DNA of 64,000 nt from Thermodesulfovibrionia bacterium (GTDB lineage: Bacteria; Nitrospirota; Thermodesulfovibrionia; UBA6902), in the NCBI GenBank assembly GCA_030646035.1, contig JAUSMY010000040.1:8081-72080 (forward strand). The letters run 5' to 3'. The notes under the pieces are model-generated. The model was not told where the DNA came from, did no database searches, and worked only from the letters and a program-made list of their open reading frames with translations. Both the position numbers and the translations under genes were made by a program. Position 1 is the stretch's first letter. Every line of letters begins with the position of its first letter. Shown here in pieces: positions 6,908-63,996 of the stretch.

Positions 6908-6996
6908 GATTTCAACTTTTGACATAAGGGGCGTACTTTAGTTCATCCTACTTGATGGATGGGTTGGGCGTCGGTTACCCGCGGAACATCATTGCT

Positions 6997-7650
6997 TCAT
7001 TGTGCGATCCACTCGTGAGTGCAGCCAGGGTTCTCCTTGATATTGGGGCTGTTGTATAGCCTGGGTTTAATCCCGAATAATAATGGGTTGGTTCCGTAGT
7101 ACCTCATCTGCGCGTAGGCGGTATCCTTACAAAAATTCTTGTTGCGCACGGTATAGGCCGCGATAACCAATCCCGTGCGGTCCTTCCCATGGCTGCAATG
7201 CACCAAGACCGGCCAATTATTTCCTTTCTCTAATGCTTCTATCGCTTGCTTGAGAATATTTTCATCTGGACTGGCCCATGGGTTTAAGTTATGCGGGAAG
7301 TCTTCCGGTTGCATGTAAAGAGGGATTACATTGATATTATGCTTCTTGGCGAGACGAAGTTCTTCTGACTCGTCTGCATCAGACGAGAATTTGTTCAGCT
7401 TGACCACGGTCTTGATGCCTATCTTCTCCAGATAGCACCAATCTGCATCTCCCTTTGGTTGACCGCTTCGGTAGATTGCACCTACACCATCAGTGCCACC
7501 TGGGATTACGATATGGAAGTTATAGACTGGGGCTGGATGCGGATCCTTTATAGCGATAACAGCTGACGGTTGCGTCAATGTCGCGCATGCTGTCAGGATT
7601 AAGCAAACGCCCAACATTGCAAGACGTATAACAGGATATACATTTCGCAT
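6997..7650 (-). CDS. predicted lipoprotein with protein-tyrosine/dual-specificity phosphatase-like domain
   Basis: 217-aa ORF; signal peptide with lipobox LILTAC; HCSHGKDRTG matches the HCX5R(S/T) P-loop of Cys-based phosphatases (codons at 7171-7200); RBS aaggag upstream; sampled lines about 50% GC. Confidence 0.6.
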   Translation of the reverse strand: MRNVYPVIRLAMLGVCLILTACATLTQPSAVIAIKDPHPAPVYNFHIVIPGGTDGVGAIYRSGQPKGDADWCYLEKIGIKTVVKLNKFSSDADESEELRLAKKHNINVIPLYMQPEDFPHNLNPWASPDENILKQAIEALEKGNNWPVLVHCSHGKDRTGLVIAAYTVRNKNFCKDTAYAQMRYYGTNPLLFGIKPRLYNSPNIKENPGCTHEWIAQ

Positions 7651-7763
7651 AACTACTCCTTGCTTTTGTCAGATTTAGGTATCTCTCTCCGCCCAACGCC
7701 GAGCTAACCTGAGCGACGCTGTTTGCCGCGTCTGGTTGAGCGCCGTGTTAGGTGAATGCTGAA

Positions 7764-8444
7764 TCACTTACGTTTCTTATTTACTAGATATGGCAGTGAA
7801 GTCGCGTGTTCAATAATTCCCTCAACCTCATTCGCTTTGCAGCTATGGGCATCCCAATTGCGCCATTTTGACTGCTTAAGCATGACTGTAAGATTCTTCT
7901 TTTCTTTGATATAGCTGAGCAGCTTCGCTACATGTGCCTCCTCTACCACAAGGGAAAAACAATCCGACATGCTAGGTTTGGTTGAGCCGTGCAACCAAGC
8001 TAGGAGTGTCAAATCATAGGTGCCATCCTTAGTCATCTGGTACTCAAATGGGCGTTCAATCGAAGAAGAAAACTGAACCTGCTTAGTGACATTCTCTCCA
8101 CCAAAGACTGTGATAGGAACTGCCAGTGAGTCACGTATTAATTCCCCGCTCTCTCCAAAGGCAAGGTAATAAGCAGGTTCAAGAAGGTAACCCTCGGGGC
8201 TGCCGCTATGCTGGATCAAGAGGGCAACTCTATCAACGGTGAGATGCTTGGAGCCAGCATTCGCAAAATTCACTGCCAAGATGAACGAGACAGGCCCCTC
8301 CAAGTCGTGGCTGATGGCAGTGTGCTCACCAGCGGTGAGATGGAGTTCGCCCATACGAAATTTTGATACGTATAGACTGATAATTGAGCCGAGCAATGCT
8401 ACTATTGAAATAACAATGGGCACTAGATCCTTCATCTCAATCAT
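7764..8444 (-). CDS. membrane-anchored hypothetical protein
   Basis: 226-aa ORF with one N-terminal TM helix (LVPIVISIVALLGSIISLYV) then soluble domain with no motif I recognise; strong RBS ggaggg upstream. Confidence 0.5.
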   Translation of the reverse strand: MIEMKDLVPIVISIVALLGSIISLYVSKFRMGELHLTAGEHTAISHDLEGPVSFILAVNFANAGSKHLTVDRVALLIQHSGSPEGYLLEPAYYLAFGESGELIRDSLAVPITVFGGENVTKQVQFSSSIERPFEYQMTKDGTYDLTLLAWLHGSTKPSMSDCFSLVVEEAHVAKLLSYIKEKKNLTVMLKQSKWRNWDAHSCKANEVEGIIEHATSLPYLVNKKRK

Positions 8445-8612
8445 GGTATGTCCCTCCAGATTCTATTCATTTGACTTGCTTCCCACATAACGTAAAGCTC
8501 AGTGACGAGTACCACTGCAAGATAACAACAAACCTCCAAACCAATTTGCATACCTCATAACAATGCTACCTCAAAAAGTGTCCTGTGGTACTCGTTCATC
8601 TGCAGCGCATGG

Positions 8613-9389
8613 TTATGCCTCCGCTGGATTGACTTCGTCTCTTGTATAACCAAATCTTTTAGCAAAAAGAATGTCAATATAGTCAGTAAGAAGAAAAAAG
8701 AAACCAAATAATTCATGTGAACTATTAATGTCAATGAAAATCATCTTGTCTTTTTCAAGAATACTTGAAGCATGGACAATTCTGTGACGTACCTGCGCTA
8801 GATCATCTAGAAAATGTAATGGGTTTTTGTGTTTTGTGCCCTCAAACTCCAGTGGAAAACTAGAGTAATGATTAACTATATCGTTTGCTCTATACCCAAT
8901 ATTAAAAACTTCACTCATCTTGCAAAATTTACCATCCCATTTTCGTGACATGAGTATATCCCGAGAAATATCAAATTGATTTTCAGTGATACCAACAGCC
9001 TGAAAAGAACGGTCAAAAAGTTGGTATAAATATGTTTCAAAAGAACCATAAAACATTACCAAGGTCTGTCTCGTCAAAACATTAACTCCATCAACTGTGA
9101 AGTTAAGTAATCGTGCAGCAGGCATAACAACATAATTGCCACTATTAAGTTGAATTTTGATAGGTGTCTTTTCTTTGAATGGTAACTTGGGAATAATCGT
9201 TTCTGCATAACGTTTTTTACATTCATCAAGGGAGAATTTAGTAACATAAAGAAATCCAGTAATTTCATTGAGTCGTCTAAAAAACAATCGTCGCTCTAAC
9301 GTACACTTGGTTTTTGGTAAAACAAAAGTGTCACCTGCATAAGGATCTGGTCCCATATTTAATGGATTTTGAGAATCGTCTGATGTCAT
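8613..9389 (-). CDS. hypothetical protein, strongly AT-rich gene; C-terminal R-x4-H motif (possible HEPN-like)
   Basis: 258-aa ORF, no TM or signal peptide; sampled 60-nt lines give about 25-35% GC; motif RHRIVH at residues 201-206. Confidence 0.5.
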   Translation of the reverse strand: MTSDDSQNPLNMGPDPYAGDTFVLPKTKCTLERRLFFRRLNEITGFLYVTKFSLDECKKRYAETIIPKLPFKEKTPIKIQLNSGNYVVMPAARLLNFTVDGVNVLTRQTLVMFYGSFETYLYQLFDRSFQAVGITENQFDISRDILMSRKWDGKFCKMSEVFNIGYRANDIVNHYSSFPLEFEGTKHKNPLHFLDDLAQVRHRIVHASSILEKDKMIFIDINSSHELFGFFFLLTDYIDILFAKRFGYTRDEVNPAEA

Positions 9390-9556
9390 CTAATTACCTG
9401 AGCATATATGTATCGTTAGAGGCATAATAATTAGTATACTGCCAACCGTATTGCTGGAATATGAATATCATAGTTGTATGGATAAGAAAAGGCAAGCACA
9501 AATGATATACGGCATAAAGAAGTAGCGCAGAAGTTATAACTTAGCGGAACGAGGAA

Positions 9557-23634: not shown

Positions 23635-23916
23635 TTATGGGTGTTTTTGAGGGTCTTGTCTGTTATCAAAAACAGAATGAATTACTATTTCGTTTCCTTC
23701 GATAGAATAAAATATTGAAAAAGGAAATCTTCTAATGACACAGCCTCTTAAACAGGAATATAATGTTTTGTACATCTCCGGGAAAGCGAGAATGTTATTT
23801 AGCGATACCTCAATACAGTCGAGAAATTCAAAACCAAGTCCTCTTCTCTGTTTTTCGTACCATTCAAACGCTAATTCAAGGTCGTCTTTAGCCCTGTCTG
23901 TATAGCGCAGAATCAT
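23635..23916 (-). CDS. type II toxin, ParE/RelE family
   Basis: 93-aa ORF; C-terminal RGCVIRRFPFSIFYSIEGNEIVIHSVFDNRQDP matches the ParE/RelE pattern; overlaps upstream antitoxin gene by 4 nt. Confidence 0.7.
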   Translation of the reverse strand: MILRYTDRAKDDLELAFEWYEKQRRGLGFEFLDCIEVSLNNILAFPEMYKTLYSCLRGCVIRRFPFSIFYSIEGNEIVIHSVFDNRQDPQKHP

Positions 23917-49941: not shown

Positions 49942-51261
49942 GTGGTTGATGTTATGTTAGTGATTATATTAATTCTGGTTCTTGTTGCTGTTGGTCAGCT
50001 TACAATGATTCTGAATCGAAGTTCAAAAATTGATTTATCTCAGCTTGAATCCCATATTGCTTCCTTTGAGAGGAACCAGGAAAGGACCGAAAGGGCATTA
50101 AGAGAAGAGGTCGCTCTAAATAGAGAAGAAACGTCAAAGAGTTCAAGAAATCTCAGGGAAGAAATGGTCAACAGTATGACAAAAATATCCAATGTTCAGC
50201 AAGAGCAGTTTGATAGTTTTTCAAAAAAACTCGATACATTGACACAAAGTAATGAGCAGAAGCTAGATAAAATGAGAGAAACTGTTGAAGGCAGGCTGAA
50301 ACTTCTTCAGGATGATAACACAAAGAAACTAGACCAAATGAGAGAAACTGTTGATGAAAAACTCCATGCTACTCTTGAAAAACGATTAGGGGAATCTTTT
50401 AAGCATGTGAGCGACAGGCTTGAAAAAGTTCATCAGGGACTTGGTGAGATGCAAACATTGGCTGCCGGAGTAGGAGACCTTAAGAAAGTTCTGACAAATG
50501 TGAAAACAAGAGGGACTTGGGGTGAAATTCAGCTTGGTGCTCTATTGGAACAAGTATTATCCGGTGAACAATATGAAAAAAACGTCGTCACAAAAAAAGG
50601 AAGTAATGACAGAGTTGAATTTGCTATTAAGCTGCCCGGGCATGATGATAAAGATGACCAGCCGGTTTGGTTGCCTATTGATGCAAAATTTCCTCGTGAA
50701 GACTATGAAAGACTTGTTGAAGCACAGGAGAAGGCTGATGCCGGGCTTGCAGAAGATGCAGCAAAACAACTGGAGGTCAGGATTAAATCAAGTGCTAAAG
50801 AGATTAAAGATAAATACCTTGATCCTCCTCATACTACAGATTTTGGCATTATGTTTTTGCCGACAGAGGGCTTGTTTGCTGAGGTTATAAAAAGACCAGG
50901 TCTTTCCGATTTTTTACAGAGAGAATACCGGATATCAGTTACCGGCCCCACAACTTTAGCCGCTTTATTGAACAGCCTTCAAATGGGGTTTAGGACACTT
51001 ACTATTGAAAAGCGTTCAAGTGAAGTTTGGTCTTTGCTTGGAGCTGTAAAAACAGAATTTGGGAAGTTCGGCACTATTCTTGATAAAACCCAGAAAAAAC
51101 TTCAAGAAGCCAGCAATACAATAGAAGATGCTGCAAAAAAATCTCGCACTATTGAGAGAAAATTAAAAAATGTACAGGAACTTCCTTCGCAAGAACCTTC
51201 ATTAATCACTGATGAAATATCAGATAATGATGAAGCCGAAAATGATGGGGTAATTACATAG
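49942..51261 (+). CDS. rmuC: DNA recombination protein RmuC
   Basis: 439-aa ORF; N-terminal TM helix, long coiled coil, C-terminal RmuC domain. Confidence 0.8.
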   Translation: MVDVMLVIILILVLVAVGQLTMILNRSSKIDLSQLESHIASFERNQERTERALREEVALNREETSKSSRNLREEMVNSMTKISNVQQEQFDSFSKKLDTLTQSNEQKLDKMRETVEGRLKLLQDDNTKKLDQMRETVDEKLHATLEKRLGESFKHVSDRLEKVHQGLGEMQTLAAGVGDLKKVLTNVKTRGTWGEIQLGALLEQVLSGEQYEKNVVTKKGSNDRVEFAIKLPGHDDKDDQPVWLPIDAKFPREDYERLVEAQEKADAGLAEDAAKQLEVRIKSSAKEIKDKYLDPPHTTDFGIMFLPTEGLFAEVIKRPGLSDFLQREYRISVTGPTTLAALLNSLQMGFRTLTIEKRSSEVWSLLGAVKTEFGKFGTILDKTQKKLQEASNTIEDAAKKSRTIERKLKNVQELPSQEPSLITDEISDNDEAENDGVIT

Positions 51262-61865: not shown

Positions 61866-62900
61866 TTATTCTAATATAGATGCTGTGATTTCCTGCGCAT
61901 CAGAGACAGAAGTCGGTAAACTGGCTGTTAACTCCATAAAGCTTTTTGAGAGGATATTCTTTGCGCTCGAATCACGCACATTTCTGTCAGCAGATCCAAA
62001 AATTACTGCAATGACCCGTTCTCCGTTTTTAGATACTGTTGCAGCAATGGAGAATCCGGCAGCTCTGAAGTACCCTGTTTTAAAGCCGTCACAGCCTTCA
62101 AAACTTCCAACAAGATGATTGTGGTTTCGCATAACAAGCGGTTTTGGGCTGTCTGTGCGGAAAAGGCGTTCTTTAGTTGAAGTATATCTCAAGGCAGCAG
62201 GATGTTTAAGCAGTTCCAGACATAATTTTGTTATATCTCTGGGGGTAGAAACATCCGGCTTGCCTTTAGCAGGAGGAAGACCGTTCACGGTACTAAATAA
62301 TGTGTCCGTCATGCCGAGTTCCTGTGCCCGCTTGTTCATGAGGCTGATAAATTTTTCCTTGTCACCTGTGTAATGAAGCGCAAGCGCCATTGCTGCATCA
62401 TTAGCTGACGGAATCATGAGGGCATAGATCAGATCATCCACCGTATGAACTTCACGTTCTTTTAAATAAACCTGTGAGCCGTCTACTTTAGCTACTTCGG
62501 CTGATATTTTGACTTTATCCTGGAGGGTTATCTGTTTTGCTTCGATAGCCTCCAGAATAACAAGAAGGTTCATCATTTTGACCATACTTGCAGGGTAGCC
62601 CTTAACATCCGGATTGTCTTCAAAAAGCACTTTGCCTGTAGCAGCATCAATTGCGATAGCGCCTAAATATGGATTTTTTGATATTTTTTGTAAACCAGAC
62701 TTGGATACTTTTGTTTTGGCTTTCCTGGTTGTCTGTTTTTTCTTGACAGTTGTGGTGCTTTTCTTGGCAGCGTATGTAGAAGTTATTGTGCATAGAAACG
62801 CAACAATGAGAAATGCAGAGATAAAAAATAATAATGAATGTTTTTTCATAGGCATTGTTTTTACTTTTAATATTATATGAATTATGGAGTAATTAGACAA
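61866..62900 (-). CDS. D-alanyl-D-alanine carboxypeptidase/endopeptidase (S11, PBP5/PBP7-like)
   Basis: 344-aa ORF with signal peptide; SxxK (ASMVK), SxN (SAND) and KTG (GFKTGY) motifs. Confidence 0.8.
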   Translation of the reverse strand: MSNYSIIHIILKVKTMPMKKHSLLFFISAFLIVAFLCTITSTYAAKKSTTTVKKKQTTRKAKTKVSKSGLQKISKNPYLGAIAIDAATGKVLFEDNPDVKGYPASMVKMMNLLVILEAIEAKQITLQDKVKISAEVAKVDGSQVYLKEREVHTVDDLIYALMIPSANDAAMALALHYTGDKEKFISLMNKRAQELGMTDTLFSTVNGLPPAKGKPDVSTPRDITKLCLELLKHPAALRYTSTKERLFRTDSPKPLVMRNHNHLVGSFEGCDGFKTGYFRAAGFSIAATVSKNGERVIAVIFGSADRNVRDSSAKNILSKSFMELTASLPTSVSDAQEITASILE

Positions 62901-63399
62901 GGTTTATTTTAAGATTTTTTTTTAAGATGAATAATATTCACCACTCAATCATCAATATGATTAGCAGAAGGCTGGTATCTGCTTGTTGAAAAACAATCTT
63001 TAAACAGTGCTCCGCAATAGAAAATATATCAAAGATTATGAAAACATGTTAGGCAAAATCAATGAGGACTTCCTCAGATTCCCATATGCCTTTTTTATGC
63101 AATGAATCCTCAAATAAGGAATAATCTTCCTGAAATACCATACTTGCTTGAGCTAACTAGTTGATTTTTAAAATGTTTTAATATGGCATGAATTTTGCTT
63201 TGTAGGGTTAAGCGATAAAATTACATATGATGGTCAAATTAAATAAGGGGAGGTGAGAATGAGCAAGTAAAACAATGTGGAACTGTAGTAAAATTAGAAG
63301 TGAAGCAGTTAATCTGATAAAGCATATGTTTTTAAGCTTTTGAAAGAATTCAGGCAGTTCAAAAACTAAACCAACTTATATTAAAAGGGGAAAAGAAAA

Positions 63400-63996
63400 A
63401 TGAATAAGAAGATGATGAAGCAAATTGTAATGTTATTAATAGTAGCAATGGTATTTGTCGGATGTGCCAAGAAGCCGGAAATGGAACTCAATAGCGCTCA
63501 GGCTGCATTGACCGCTGCAATGGAAGAGGGAGCCAATAAGTACGCTAAAGACGAAGCAAAGGGTCTTAATGATGAGCTTCAGGCTGCATTGGATGAGATG
63601 AAGGTCCAGGAAGGCAAGATATTCAAGAATTATGACAAGACAAAAGAGATGCTTGCTAAAGTAAACGGCGGAGCAGAGGCACTTAAGGCAAAGATCCCAG
63701 CTCTCAAACAAGCTGCTAAAGATGCTGCACAGGCTGCTGCAGATTCTGCAAAGGCATCTATTGAAGAAGCAAAGGCTCTGTTAGCAAAGGCACCAAGAGG
63801 CAAGGGTTCAATGGCAGATATTGAAATGATGAAGGCTGATGTTACCGGACTTGAAGCTTCTATGGCTGAAGTACAGACATTGATCGATACAGAAGAATAC
63901 TTCGTTGCAGCAGATAAAGCCAATGTTATCAAGACCAGCGCAGTAGGCGTTATTGACGCAGTTAATCAGGCACTTGCGAAAAAAGGCAAAAAGTAG
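63400..63996 (+). CDS. Ala/Lys-rich helical lipoprotein, function unknown
   Basis: 198-aa ORF; signal peptide with lipobox VFVGC; RBS ggggaaaag upstream. Confidence 0.5.
   Translation: MNKKMMKQIVMLLIVAMVFVGCAKKPEMELNSAQAALTAAMEEGANKYAKDEAKGLNDELQAALDEMKVQEGKIFKNYDKTKEMLAKVNGGAEALKAKIPALKQAAKDAAQAAADSAKASIEEAKALLAKAPRGKGSMADIEMMKADVTGLEASMAEVQTLIDTEEYFVAADKANVIKTSAVGVIDAVNQALAKKGKK

What the first reader, a model, noticed from the sequence alone, without database searches (positions are those of the whole stretch)
8613..9389. AT-rich orphan gene with a C-terminal R-x4-H motif (possible HEPN-like RNase)
This is the most compositionally deviant gene in the window. Residues R201-H206 (RHRIVH, codons at about 8772-8789) fit the R-x4-6-H signature of HEPN-fold RNases, which are common toxin or abortive-infection effectors. 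A single short motif is weak evidence on its own.
Basis: inference. Interest (0 to 1): 0.55.

Follow-up and report, generated by a model that had tools for sequence, protein, structure and literature searches.

The report
HEPN RNase gene on integron cassette
The AT-rich gene is not an orphan: it belongs to a small, widely shared family of HEPN-type (predicted RNA-cutting) proteins and sits on a mobile integron gene cassette, so it is a plausible but untested phage-defence or toxin gene of a known kind.

Summary
The ORF (8613-9389, minus strand, 258 aa), its RHRIVH motif (8772-8789) and its deviant composition (lowest GC, 0.34, and GC3, 0.25, of 63 ORFs) are real. "Orphan" is wrong: more than 215 homologues exist at 52-69% identity in at least five phyla.

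The new point is context. The gene is a 937-bp single-gene integron cassette (8491-9427). Its stop codon lies inside the R'' box of an attC site (8485-8618). A second cassette with a strong attC follows (7691-7753). The window has no integrase, so this is an integrase-less cassette array, but a close relative has an integron integrase directly after accA. Homologues lie in cassette arrays next to integron integrases, with no conserved partner gene.

It is most likely a stand-alone RNase acting in abortive infection or growth arrest. That function is inferred only. It is a new member of a known kind, of modest interest.

The parts
8613..9389 (-). ORF of 258 aa encoding a RiboL-PSP-type HEPN protein (GenBank MDO8282232.1, annotated hypothetical)
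8772..8789 (-). Codons of R201-H202-R203-I204-V205-H206, the HEPN R-x4-H catalytic motif
   Evidence: Coordinates verified. R201 and H206 are invariant in 41 close and 27 distant homologues; position 202 is H, N or D. The motif lies at the C-terminal end of helix 190-206.
9036..9038 (-). Codon of E118, the conserved acidic residue in the long helix 91-132 (HEPN helix 2)
   Evidence: Invariant in A6 together with Y114, W151, R201 and H206. It lies in helix 91-132 of the model. A conserved acidic residue in helix 2 is a HEPN feature according to PMC3710099.
8491..9427 (-). Cassette 1 (937 bp, GC 0.354): 5' end TTATGCC, 38-nt leader, the HEPN ORF, and attC up to the G of R'
   Evidence: The 5' TTATGCC box is shared with homologue cassettes and is the exact complement of R'' GCATAAC. 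It holds a single ORF and no partner gene.
8485..8618 (-). attC site 1: R'' GCATAAC (8618-8612, containing the TAA stop codon), 5-nt spacers, stem with three single-base bulges on one arm, R' GTTATGT (8491-8485)
   Evidence: Covariance model R2, built only from other loci: 22.5 bits, E=1.4e-3 over the whole window. 11-bp perfect inverted repeat 8505-8515/8585-8595. Bottom-strand DNA fold -16.7 kcal/mol, z=-2.65, 0 of 200 shuffles as stable.
7697..8490 (-). Cassette 2 (794 bp): 226-aa membrane-anchored protein of unknown function (ORF 7764-8444) plus its attC
   Evidence: ORF. 23 homologues in several phyla, never next to HEPN homologues. Model: TM helix plus beta-sandwich.
7691..7753 (-). attC site 2: R'' ACCTAAC, L box GCT[C]AACC, R' GTTGGGC (fits GTTRRRY)
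   Evidence: R1 (6 seeds): the only hit in the 64 kb, 30.1 bits, E=2.9e-6. R2: 44.1 bits, E=3.7e-9.
6908..6969 (-). Doubtful third attC-like site downstream of the phosphatase ORF 6997-7650
   Evidence: R2 14.9 bits, E=0.13. It is on the right strand and in the right place, but it does not fold as a hairpin. Treated as unproven.
9428..9556 (-). Spacer between accA and cassette 1. There is no attC, no integrase and no terminator. It holds one promoter-like site (9495-9467) pointing into the array and a second TTATGCC box at 9517-9511.
   Evidence: CM search with filters off. Promoter/terminator scan. Homology to relative L028 ends a few bases past that genome's intI stop codon. No significant IntI remnant.

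Best explanation
Shown:
- The gene encodes a divergent member of the RiboL-PSP branch of the HEPN superfamily with all catalytic-type residues intact: R201, the polar H202, H206 and the helix-2 acid E118.
- It is the sole ORF of a 937-bp integron gene cassette. The cassette's attC recombination site starts inside the last codon and stop codon.
- The cassette is the first of two (possibly three) cassettes in an integrase-less array (CALIN). The array lies between the accA-dnaE genes and the rplQ end of the ribosomal-protein/rpoA cluster of a Thermodesulfovibrionia genome.
- A close relative carries an integron integrase at this same locus.
- Horizontal acquisition as a cassette explains the deviant base composition.

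Inferred:
- The protein acts alone, probably as a dimer like other HEPN RNases, as a metal-independent endoribonuclease.
- It is held inactive in healthy cells, possibly by its family-specific N-terminal segment and small beta-subdomain.
- On phage infection or stress it cuts cellular RNA (tRNA, rRNA or mRNA). This stops translation and causes growth arrest or abortive infection.
- In this genome expression would depend on read-through from accA or on the weak promoter-like site in the spacer.
For: HEPN identity:
- Pfam PF18735 is the only family hit. It matches 39 of 41 homologues, best E=2.9e-8.
- Y114, E118, W151, R201 and H206 are the only invariant residues down to 17% identity, and the residue after R is H, N or D. 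This matches the HEPN signature described in PMC3710099.
- The AF2 model (pLDDT 88.5) has four long core helices with the motif at the end of the third.

Cassette identity:
- attC models built only from other loci find three hits in 128 kb of searched strand. All are on the gene strand and directly after consecutive ORFs.
- attC 1 folds canonically.
- 65 of 66 attC hits in the model-building and genome loci lie on the gene strand. In the independent metagenome loci, 122 of 134 hits do, and the 12 opposite-strand hits re-read sites already hit on the gene strand.
- The attC begins 2 nt before the end of the coding match in 31 metagenome loci.
- 42 of 54 distinct gene copies end in TAAC.
- True integron integrases (TIGR02249, 426 bits) flank arrays that hold homologues.
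- A relative with 93% identical AccA has intI right after accA.

Stand-alone nature:
- No recurrent neighbour occurs within 3 kb in 17 loci.
- All 74 family representatives are about 250-280 aa or fragments, with no fusions.

Defence inference:
- Neighbouring cassettes include CBASS (CD-NTase plus Cap15), TIR, ThsB-TIR, Abi_C, Mrr and many toxin-antitoxin pairs.
- HEPN-only or HEPN-containing single integron cassettes have been shown to protect against phages. Examples are Esos and Taranis (bioRxiv 10.1101/2024.07.02.601686), the AbiV cassette brcN (10.1101/2024.07.02.601719) and an AbiU2-HEPN cassette (10.64898/2026.03.17.712381).
Against: - There are no functional data of any kind.
- The window protein scores below Pfam's gathering threshold (22.1 vs 28.4 bits).
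- Foldseek against the PDB found nothing with E below 0.1.
- PADLOC gave only a weak hit to a candidate system (PDC-M15A, E=0.037).
- PHROGs, plasmid and phage collections gave nothing.
- attC 1 is a modest hit (E about 1e-3).
- The base before the cassette's 5' TTATGCC is A rather than the expected G.
- The window has no integrase, so the cassette may be immobile and silent here.
- About half of the homologue loci lack a detectable attC.
- How a toxic RNase would be tolerated without an antitoxin is unexplained.
Confidence: 0.6

Rival explanations
1. An addiction or toxin module. The HEPN protein is a toxin whose main role is to stabilise the cassette array by killing cells that lose it, with an unrecognised antitoxin. 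The antitoxin could be an RNA from the long attC region, a distant gene, or an intramolecular inhibitor.
Against: The cassette holds one ORF and a 38-nt leader. No MNT or other conserved neighbour occurs within 3 kb in 17 loci. The central part of the attC is not conserved between homologue cassettes.
Confidence: 0.15
2. A stress-response or dormancy RNase, or an RNA-binding or RNA-processing protein with no role in phage defence. Anantharaman et al. proposed this for integron-borne HEPN domains.
For: PMC3710099 proposes that HEPN domains in integron cassettes induce dormancy under stress. Some homologues lie among metabolic genes with no defence neighbours (L001; L009 and L020).
Against: The patchy distribution across phyla and the cassette mobility fit an accessory conflict gene. 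Strictly conserved catalytic residues argue against a pure binding role. Published tests of HEPN cassettes showed phage resistance.
Confidence: 0.15
3. Silent cargo in this genome. The cassette is a stranded remnant of a decayed integron, with no integrase and no proven promoter. It is not expressed and contributes nothing at present.
For: The 64-kb window has no IntI. Cassettes are normally promoterless. Only one weak promoter-like match lies upstream, and such matches are fewer than in shuffled sequence. The cassette's 5' junction is non-canonical (A before TTATGCC).
Against: The ORF is intact with all conserved residues. A 99% identical copy occurs in another data set. It lies co-directionally 166 nt behind accA with no terminator between them, so read-through is plausible. 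This reading concerns expression rather than molecular function, so it can be true together with the best explanation.
Confidence: 0.25
4. A chance motif in a non-HEPN helical protein.
For: R-x4-6-H is expected about once by chance in a protein of this size, and a second non-conserved match exists. Foldseek found no PDB match. The Pfam hit is below threshold.
Confidence: 0.03

Closest known systems
RiboL-PSP-HEPN family (Pfam PF18735; Anantharaman et al. 2013, PMC3710099)
   Same: It is the only Pfam family hit, for the window protein and for 39 of 41 homologues. Both have R-x4-H with a polar residue after R, an acidic residue in helix 2 and an insert between helices 2 and 3. The family was predicted to be an RNase distantly related to AbiD/AbiF.
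   Different: The window protein is below the gathering score. There is no fusion to an endoribonuclease L-PSP domain and no ParB neighbour, the two contexts that named the family. This subfamily has its own conserved N-terminal segment (about 90 aa) and is a compact group of only 74 cluster representatives.
HEPN-containing single integron cassettes shown to defend against phages: Esos and Taranis of the Vibrio cholerae chromosomal integron, brcN (AbiV) of mobile integrons, and an AbiU2-HEPN cassette of V. mimicus
   Same: All are one small gene per cassette with a HEPN-type domain, carried by integrons, with growth arrest or abortive-infection phenotypes reported.
   Different: They belong to different HEPN families (Abi_C/AbiJ, AbiV, AbiU2; Esos is unspecified) and come from Gammaproteobacteria. 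The window gene is untested and sits in a Nitrospirota genome.
'Integron cassette HEPN' family (PDB 3jrt) of Anantharaman et al. 2013
   Same: A HEPN domain with R-x4-6-H carried on integron cassettes.
HEPN-MNT type II/VII toxin-antitoxin systems (e.g. SO_3166/SO_3165, PDB 5yep)
   Different: There is no adjacent MNT nucleotidyltransferase gene or any other conserved partner. The protein is about twice as long.
[quoted passage not shown]
   Same: Two or more co-oriented attC sites, each after a small ORF, with no integrase nearby.
   Different: The array is very short (2-3 cassettes), and the upstream junction is non-canonical.

Membership tests
HEPN superfamily | Conserved R-x4-6-H motif | tested here: met
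   RHRIVH at 201-206. R201 and H206 are invariant in A1 (41 sequences) and A6 (27 sequences, down to 17% identity).
HEPN superfamily | Polar residue (N, D or H) immediately after the conserved R | tested here: met
   H202 is invariant in A1. The position is H, N or D in distant members. Criterion from PMC3710099.
HEPN superfamily | [quoted passage not shown] | tested here: met
   [not shown]
HEPN superfamily | Conserved acidic residue upstream, in helix 2 | tested here: met
   E118 is invariant in A6 and lies in helix 91-132.
HEPN superfamily | Metal-independent endoribonuclease activity that leaves 2',3'-cyclic phosphate ends | not testable with these tools
   Needs biochemistry.
Pfam PF18735 HEPN_RiboL-PSP | Score at or above the curated gathering threshold (28.4 bits) | tested here: inconclusive
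   The window protein scores 22.1 bits, E=1.6e-4, below the cut-off. 39 of 41 homologues match at E<=0.01, best 2.9e-8. Many homologues carry a precomputed PF18735 assignment. It is best described as a divergent subfamily.
Pfam PF18735 HEPN_RiboL-PSP | Eponymous contexts: fusion to endoribonuclease L-PSP or an operon with ParB | tested here: not met
   There are no fusions among 74 representatives and no conserved neighbour in 17 loci. This is a typical context, not a strict requirement.
Integron gene cassette | attC site at the 3' end (R''-L''...L'-R', with R' close to GTTRRRY, imperfect hairpin with extrahelical bases) | tested here: met
   8485-8618: R2 22.5 bits, E=1.4e-3. The fold shows a 6-bp R box, 5-nt spacers and bulges on one arm, z=-2.65. 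R' is GTTATGT, one mismatch to the consensus.
Integron gene cassette | Single, usually promoterless ORF oriented towards its attC, with a short leader | tested here: met
   One ORF with a 38-nt leader, and the stop codon lies inside R''.
Integron gene cassette | The same cassette family is found in arrays next to integron integrases elsewhere | tested here: met
   L002, L003, L005, L044, L011, L071 and L021 have IntI (TIGR02249 up to 426 bits against a cut-off of 265). Arrays of up to 11 co-oriented attC sites occur.
Complete integron | intI gene and attI adjacent to the array | tested here: not met
   No IntI in the window (tblastn E>7) and no attC/attI-like hit upstream. A relative has intI at the same locus. 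The window element is therefore a CALIN.
Integron gene cassette | Excision and integration by an integron integrase | not testable with these tools
   Needs a recombination assay.
HEPN-MNT toxin-antitoxin | Adjacent MNT (nucleotidyltransferase) antitoxin gene | tested here: not met
   The cassette has a single ORF, and no recurrent neighbour occurs across 17 loci.
Integron cassette HEPN family (PDB 3jrt) | Detectable sequence or close structural similarity to 3jrt | tested here: not met
   [not shown]
Known defence-system HEPN components (PADLOC: ApeA, PD-T4-5, PD-T7-3 and others) | Match to a PADLOC model | tested here: not met
   The only hit is PDC-M15A, E=0.037, over 36 residues around the motif.

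The most novel reading that the evidence does not exclude
This compact family (about 257 aa, found in integrons of anaerobic sediment and groundwater bacteria of at least five phyla) could be a new self-contained, single-protein anti-phage system. Its family-specific N-terminal segment and small beta-subdomain would act as a built-in sensor or lock. That would keep a HEPN RNase harmless without any antitoxin until infection. It would extend the 'integrons as defence biobanks' idea well beyond Vibrio and clinical integrons.
Probability: 0.3. Interest if true: 0.5.

Novelty: new member of a known kind. Interest (0 to 1): 0.3.

Why it matters
If the inference holds, this is an easily testable, very small defence or toxin module: one 777-bp gene with three obvious point-mutant controls. 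It is spread by integrons among uncultured anaerobes (Nitrospirota, Desulfobacterota, Planctomycetota, Bacteroidota, Chloroflexota). It would add a RiboL-PSP-type HEPN to the short list of HEPN cassettes shown to protect against phages, and it would show that environmental chromosomal integrons outside the Proteobacteria stock the same kind of cargo. For genome annotation, it turns a "hypothetical protein" and two unannotated intergenic hairpins into a defined mobile element. That element also explains the local compositional anomaly. None of this is conceptually new.

Tried and rejected
- Rfam scan of 5.5-11 kb: no attC family and only noise.
- First attC scanners in Python: one call was lost, and the strict versions missed most sites, including the window's.
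- RNAalifold on a raw MAFFT alignment of full-length attC sites gave no structure. I therefore built a model from six trimmed seeds in one register and iterated.
- Foldseek against the PDB: no hit with E below 0.1. The afdb50 library was unavailable.
- PDB sequence searches with two profiles: nothing.
- PADLOC, NCBIfam and PHROGs: nothing useful for the protein.
- Plasmid and phage collections: no match.
- Idea that the downstream 226-aa gene is a partner or a relative of the HEPN gene: rejected. A weak tblastn similarity (E 0.16) had an hhalign probability of 3%, and the two genes never co-occur.
- Idea that the accA-cassette spacer keeps a decayed intI fragment: not supported. The alignment score of 28 compares with a shuffle mean of 25.6 +/- 3.5.
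- Third attC after the phosphatase gene: left as doubtful.
- Looking for an 'empty site' in relatives: L027 has different synteny, so there is no clean empty site.

Full report
**1. The observation**

An ORF runs 8613..9389 on the minus strand and encodes 258 aa. RHRIVH occupies residues 201-206, which is window 8772-8789, exactly as reported. The ORF's GC is 0.340 against 0.441 for the window. It has the lowest GC and the lowest GC3 (0.247) of 63 non-overlapping ORFs of at least 80 aa.

A single R-x4-6-H is expected about once by chance in a protein of this size. A second match, RANDIVNH at residue 167, is present but not conserved. The motif therefore carries weight only through its conservation.

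The word "orphan" is wrong:
- 215 proteins match at E <= 1e-3, the listed ones at 52-69% identity over the full length.
- Thirteen genome loci and 79 metagenome loci encode relatives.
- The protein itself is GenBank MDO8282232.1, a hypothetical protein of a Thermodesulfovibrionia MAG.
- Host assignment is supported by the 100% identical neighbouring protein and by the AccA relatives.

**2. What the protein is**

Pfam gives one family, PF18735 HEPN_RiboL-PSP. It covers residues 100-226 with E=1.6e-4 and 22.1 bits, below the 28.4-bit gathering score. Scanned individually, 39 of 41 homologues hit the same family, best E=2.9e-8. Many carry a precomputed PF18735 label, and UniRef names one of them a RiboL-PSP-HEPN domain protein.

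An exhaustive HMMER search of 1.84 billion cluster representatives finds only 74 relatives. All are about 250-280 aa or fragments, with no fusions. This is a compact, divergent subfamily.

In an alignment reaching 17% identity, the only invariant residues are Y114, E118, W151, R201 and H206. R33, L194, V205, D239 and F242 are nearly invariant, and the residue after R201 is H, N or D. This is the signature Anantharaman et al. give for catalytically active HEPN domains (PMC3710099):
- an R-x4-6-H motif;
- a polar N, D or H after the R;
- an acidic residue in helix 2;
- the motif at the end of helix 3, running into the loop to helix 4.

The AlphaFold2 model is confident (pLDDT 88.5, pTM 0.84). 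It shows long helices at 31-68, 91-132, 190-206 and 223-246. A helical and hairpin insert lies between the second and third helices. RHRIVH closes helix 190-206, and a loop follows.

Taken together, assigning the protein to the HEPN fold with an intact RNase-type site is well supported. RNase activity itself is untested.

**3. What the locus is**

The genes around the homologues were the first clue. They sit singly in runs of small co-oriented ORFs rich in toxin-antitoxin pairs, acetyltransferases, TIR, CBASS, Mrr and Abi_C genes, next to tyrosine recombinases. Those recombinases are integron integrases: TIGR02249 scores 426 bits against a cut-off of 265 in L002, and split copies occur in L003 and L005. 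More occur in L044, L011, L071 and L021.

Reading the flanks showed the following:
- an RYYYAAC-type box (GCATAAC, GCTTAAC or CCCTAAC) overlapping the stop codon of each homologue;
- a GTTRRRY-type box 60-130 nt downstream;
- another GTTAGGC, GTTAAGC or GTTATGC box 10-30 nt before each start codon.

Rfam has no attC model, so I built covariance models from loci other than the window. R1 used six trimmed seeds. R2 used 33 harvested sites, all of which fell on the gene strand.

R1 finds exactly one hit in both strands of the 64-kb window: 7691-7753 on the minus strand, 30.1 bits, E=2.9e-6. R2 finds three hits, all on the minus strand and each directly after one of three consecutive minus-strand ORFs. 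The result is unchanged with filters off:

| Site (minus strand) | Bits | E-value | Position |
|---|---|---|---|
| 7691-7753 | 44.1 | 3.7e-9 | after the 226-aa ORF |
| 8485-8618 | 22.5 | 1.4e-3 | starts inside the last codon and stop codon of the HEPN ORF |
| 6908-6969 | 14.9 | 0.13 | after the phosphatase ORF |

Site 8485-8618 contains an 11-bp perfect inverted repeat. Its bottom strand folds as single-stranded DNA into the textbook attC shape: a 6-bp R box, 5-nt unpaired spacers and a stem with three single-base bulges on one arm. The free energy is -16.7 kcal/mol, z=-2.65, and none of 200 shuffles is as stable. The third site does not fold as a hairpin, so I treat it as doubtful.

Cassette 1 therefore runs from TTATGCC at 9427 to the G of GTTATGT at 8491. 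It is 937 bp with GC 0.354. Its 5' end is the exact complement partner of its own R'' box GCATAAC, as expected for a cassette that circularises.

In 79 metagenome loci that played no part in model building, R2 gives 134 hits at E <= 0.05. Every independent site is on the gene strand. In 31 of these loci the attC starts 2 nt before the end of the coding match. Of 54 distinct gene copies, 42 end in TAAC. The overlap between stop codon and R'' is thus an ancestral property of this cassette family. About half of the loci lack a detectable attC, so some copies are stranded or have divergent sites.

The gene is more AT-rich than its surroundings in 16 of 17 loci, including the window; the exception is L015.

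**4. Local history**

The window has no integron integrase (tblastn E>7) and no attC or attI-like hit between accA and cassette 1. The element is therefore a short integrase-less array (CALIN).

The closest available relative has 93% identical AccA. It carries the C-terminal part of an integron integrase (TIGR02249, 173 bits, cut by the contig end), convergent with accA and directly after it. DNA homology between the two genomes is 87% over 100 nt. It runs through the end of accA and about 39 nt beyond, past that intI stop codon, and then stops. A decayed intI remnant in the window's spacer is not supported statistically.

The simplest reading is that a chromosomal integron at the accA locus lost its integrase in the window's lineage. 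This is an inference from one truncated contig. A more distant relative (86% AccA identity) has different genes after accA and no integron.

The short-read assembly of the source sample breaks with a 30-nt overlap exactly at 8591-8620. This hints at alternative junctions at this attC in the population.

**5. How it probably works**

Shown: the gene is a single-ORF mobile cassette. Its protein has an intact HEPN catalytic signature and no conserved partner within 3 kb in 17 loci.

Inferred from established knowledge of HEPN enzymes: a metal-independent endoribonuclease, normally acting as a dimer with juxtaposed R-x4-6-H motifs, that cleaves host RNA and arrests translation.

Inferred from context and precedent: a role in abortive infection or growth arrest. 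HEPN-bearing single cassettes of Vibrio and mobile integrons protect against phages:
- Esos and Taranis (10.1101/2024.07.02.601686);
- brcN, an AbiV cassette (10.1101/2024.07.02.601719);
- an AbiU2-HEPN cassette (10.64898/2026.03.17.712381).

A review also lists PF18735-type HEPN domains in validated E. coli systems (PMC10952713), but no PADLOC model of those systems matches this protein.

How toxicity is held in check is unknown. The conserved N-terminal 90 residues and the small beta-subdomain are candidates.

Expression here would need read-through from accA, since no terminator lies between them, or the single weak promoter-like site at 9495-9467.

Rivals:
- an addiction toxin with an unrecognised antitoxin;
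- a stress or dormancy RNase, as proposed in 2013;
- silent cargo, which is compatible with the other readings.

**6. Comparison and novelty**

The protein works like, and is most likely a divergent member of, the RiboL-PSP branch of the HEPN superfamily. It is sub-threshold for the Pfam model and lacks the L-PSP fusion or ParB context that named that family.

It is not a member of the 3jrt integron HEPN family, of HEPN-MNT pairs, or of any PADLOC-modelled system.

The element is an ordinary integron cassette in a CALIN. HEPN domains on integron cassettes, and integrons as stores of defence genes, are already published.

What is added here:
- one more HEPN family on cassettes;
- its spread across at least five phyla of mostly uncultured anaerobes;
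- the explanation of the compositional anomaly.

**Verdict.** It is a new member of a known kind, of modest interest (0.3).

Noticed in passing
[not shown]
   Followed up: partly
window 6997-7650 (-), 6908-6969 (-): A lipoprotein-like dual-specificity/tyrosine phosphatase (Y_phosphatase2, DSPc, Tc-R-P) lies just after attC 2. It is followed by a weak attC-like hit (14.9 bits, E 0.13) that does not fold as a hairpin. It may be a third, decayed cassette or simply a host gene. Its GC is host-like.
   Followed up: partly
L028:4193-4579 (relative of the window's genome; the window equivalent would lie just beyond 9556): A metagenomic relative with 93% identical AccA has an integron integrase fragment directly downstream of accA and convergent with it. 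The window has only a 166-nt spacer there. This suggests the window's array is the remnant of a chromosomal integron that lost intI.
   Followed up: partly
window 8591-8620: Two contigs of the Logan assembly of SRR13727526 end and start here with a 30-nt overlap, inside the 5' arm of attC 1. This looks like a branch in the assembly graph at the cassette junction and may reflect cassette-array polymorphism.
   Followed up: no
window 9511-9518 and 9421-9428 (-): Two TTATGCC boxes lie 90 nt apart in the accA-cassette spacer. The second is the cassette's 5' end. The base before each is T or A instead of the G expected at an integrase crossover. Homologue loci L017 and L020 show the same non-G junction. 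Unexplained.
   Followed up: no
window 23635-23916 (-): The ORF with the second-lowest GC (0.358) is a ParE-family toxin (Pfam PF05016, E=1e-9). It is probably part of a small toxin-antitoxin insertion.
   Followed up: no
window 49942-51261 (+): A RmuC-family gene has unusually low GC3 (0.30) compared with its neighbours.
   Followed up: no
window about 62600-63400: This is the most AT-rich stretch of the window (GC about 0.30 over 777 bp). It spans the end of a D-Ala-D-Ala carboxypeptidase gene (61866-62900, minus strand) and the following intergenic region.
   Followed up: no
L005:5831-7382 and L004:209-9797: Arrays that hold HEPN homologues also carry compact defence cassettes: a CD-NTase plus Cap15-like CBASS pair, ThsB-TIR, TIR_2, Abi_C and Mrr_cat genes. 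Each is bounded by attC hits.
   Followed up: no
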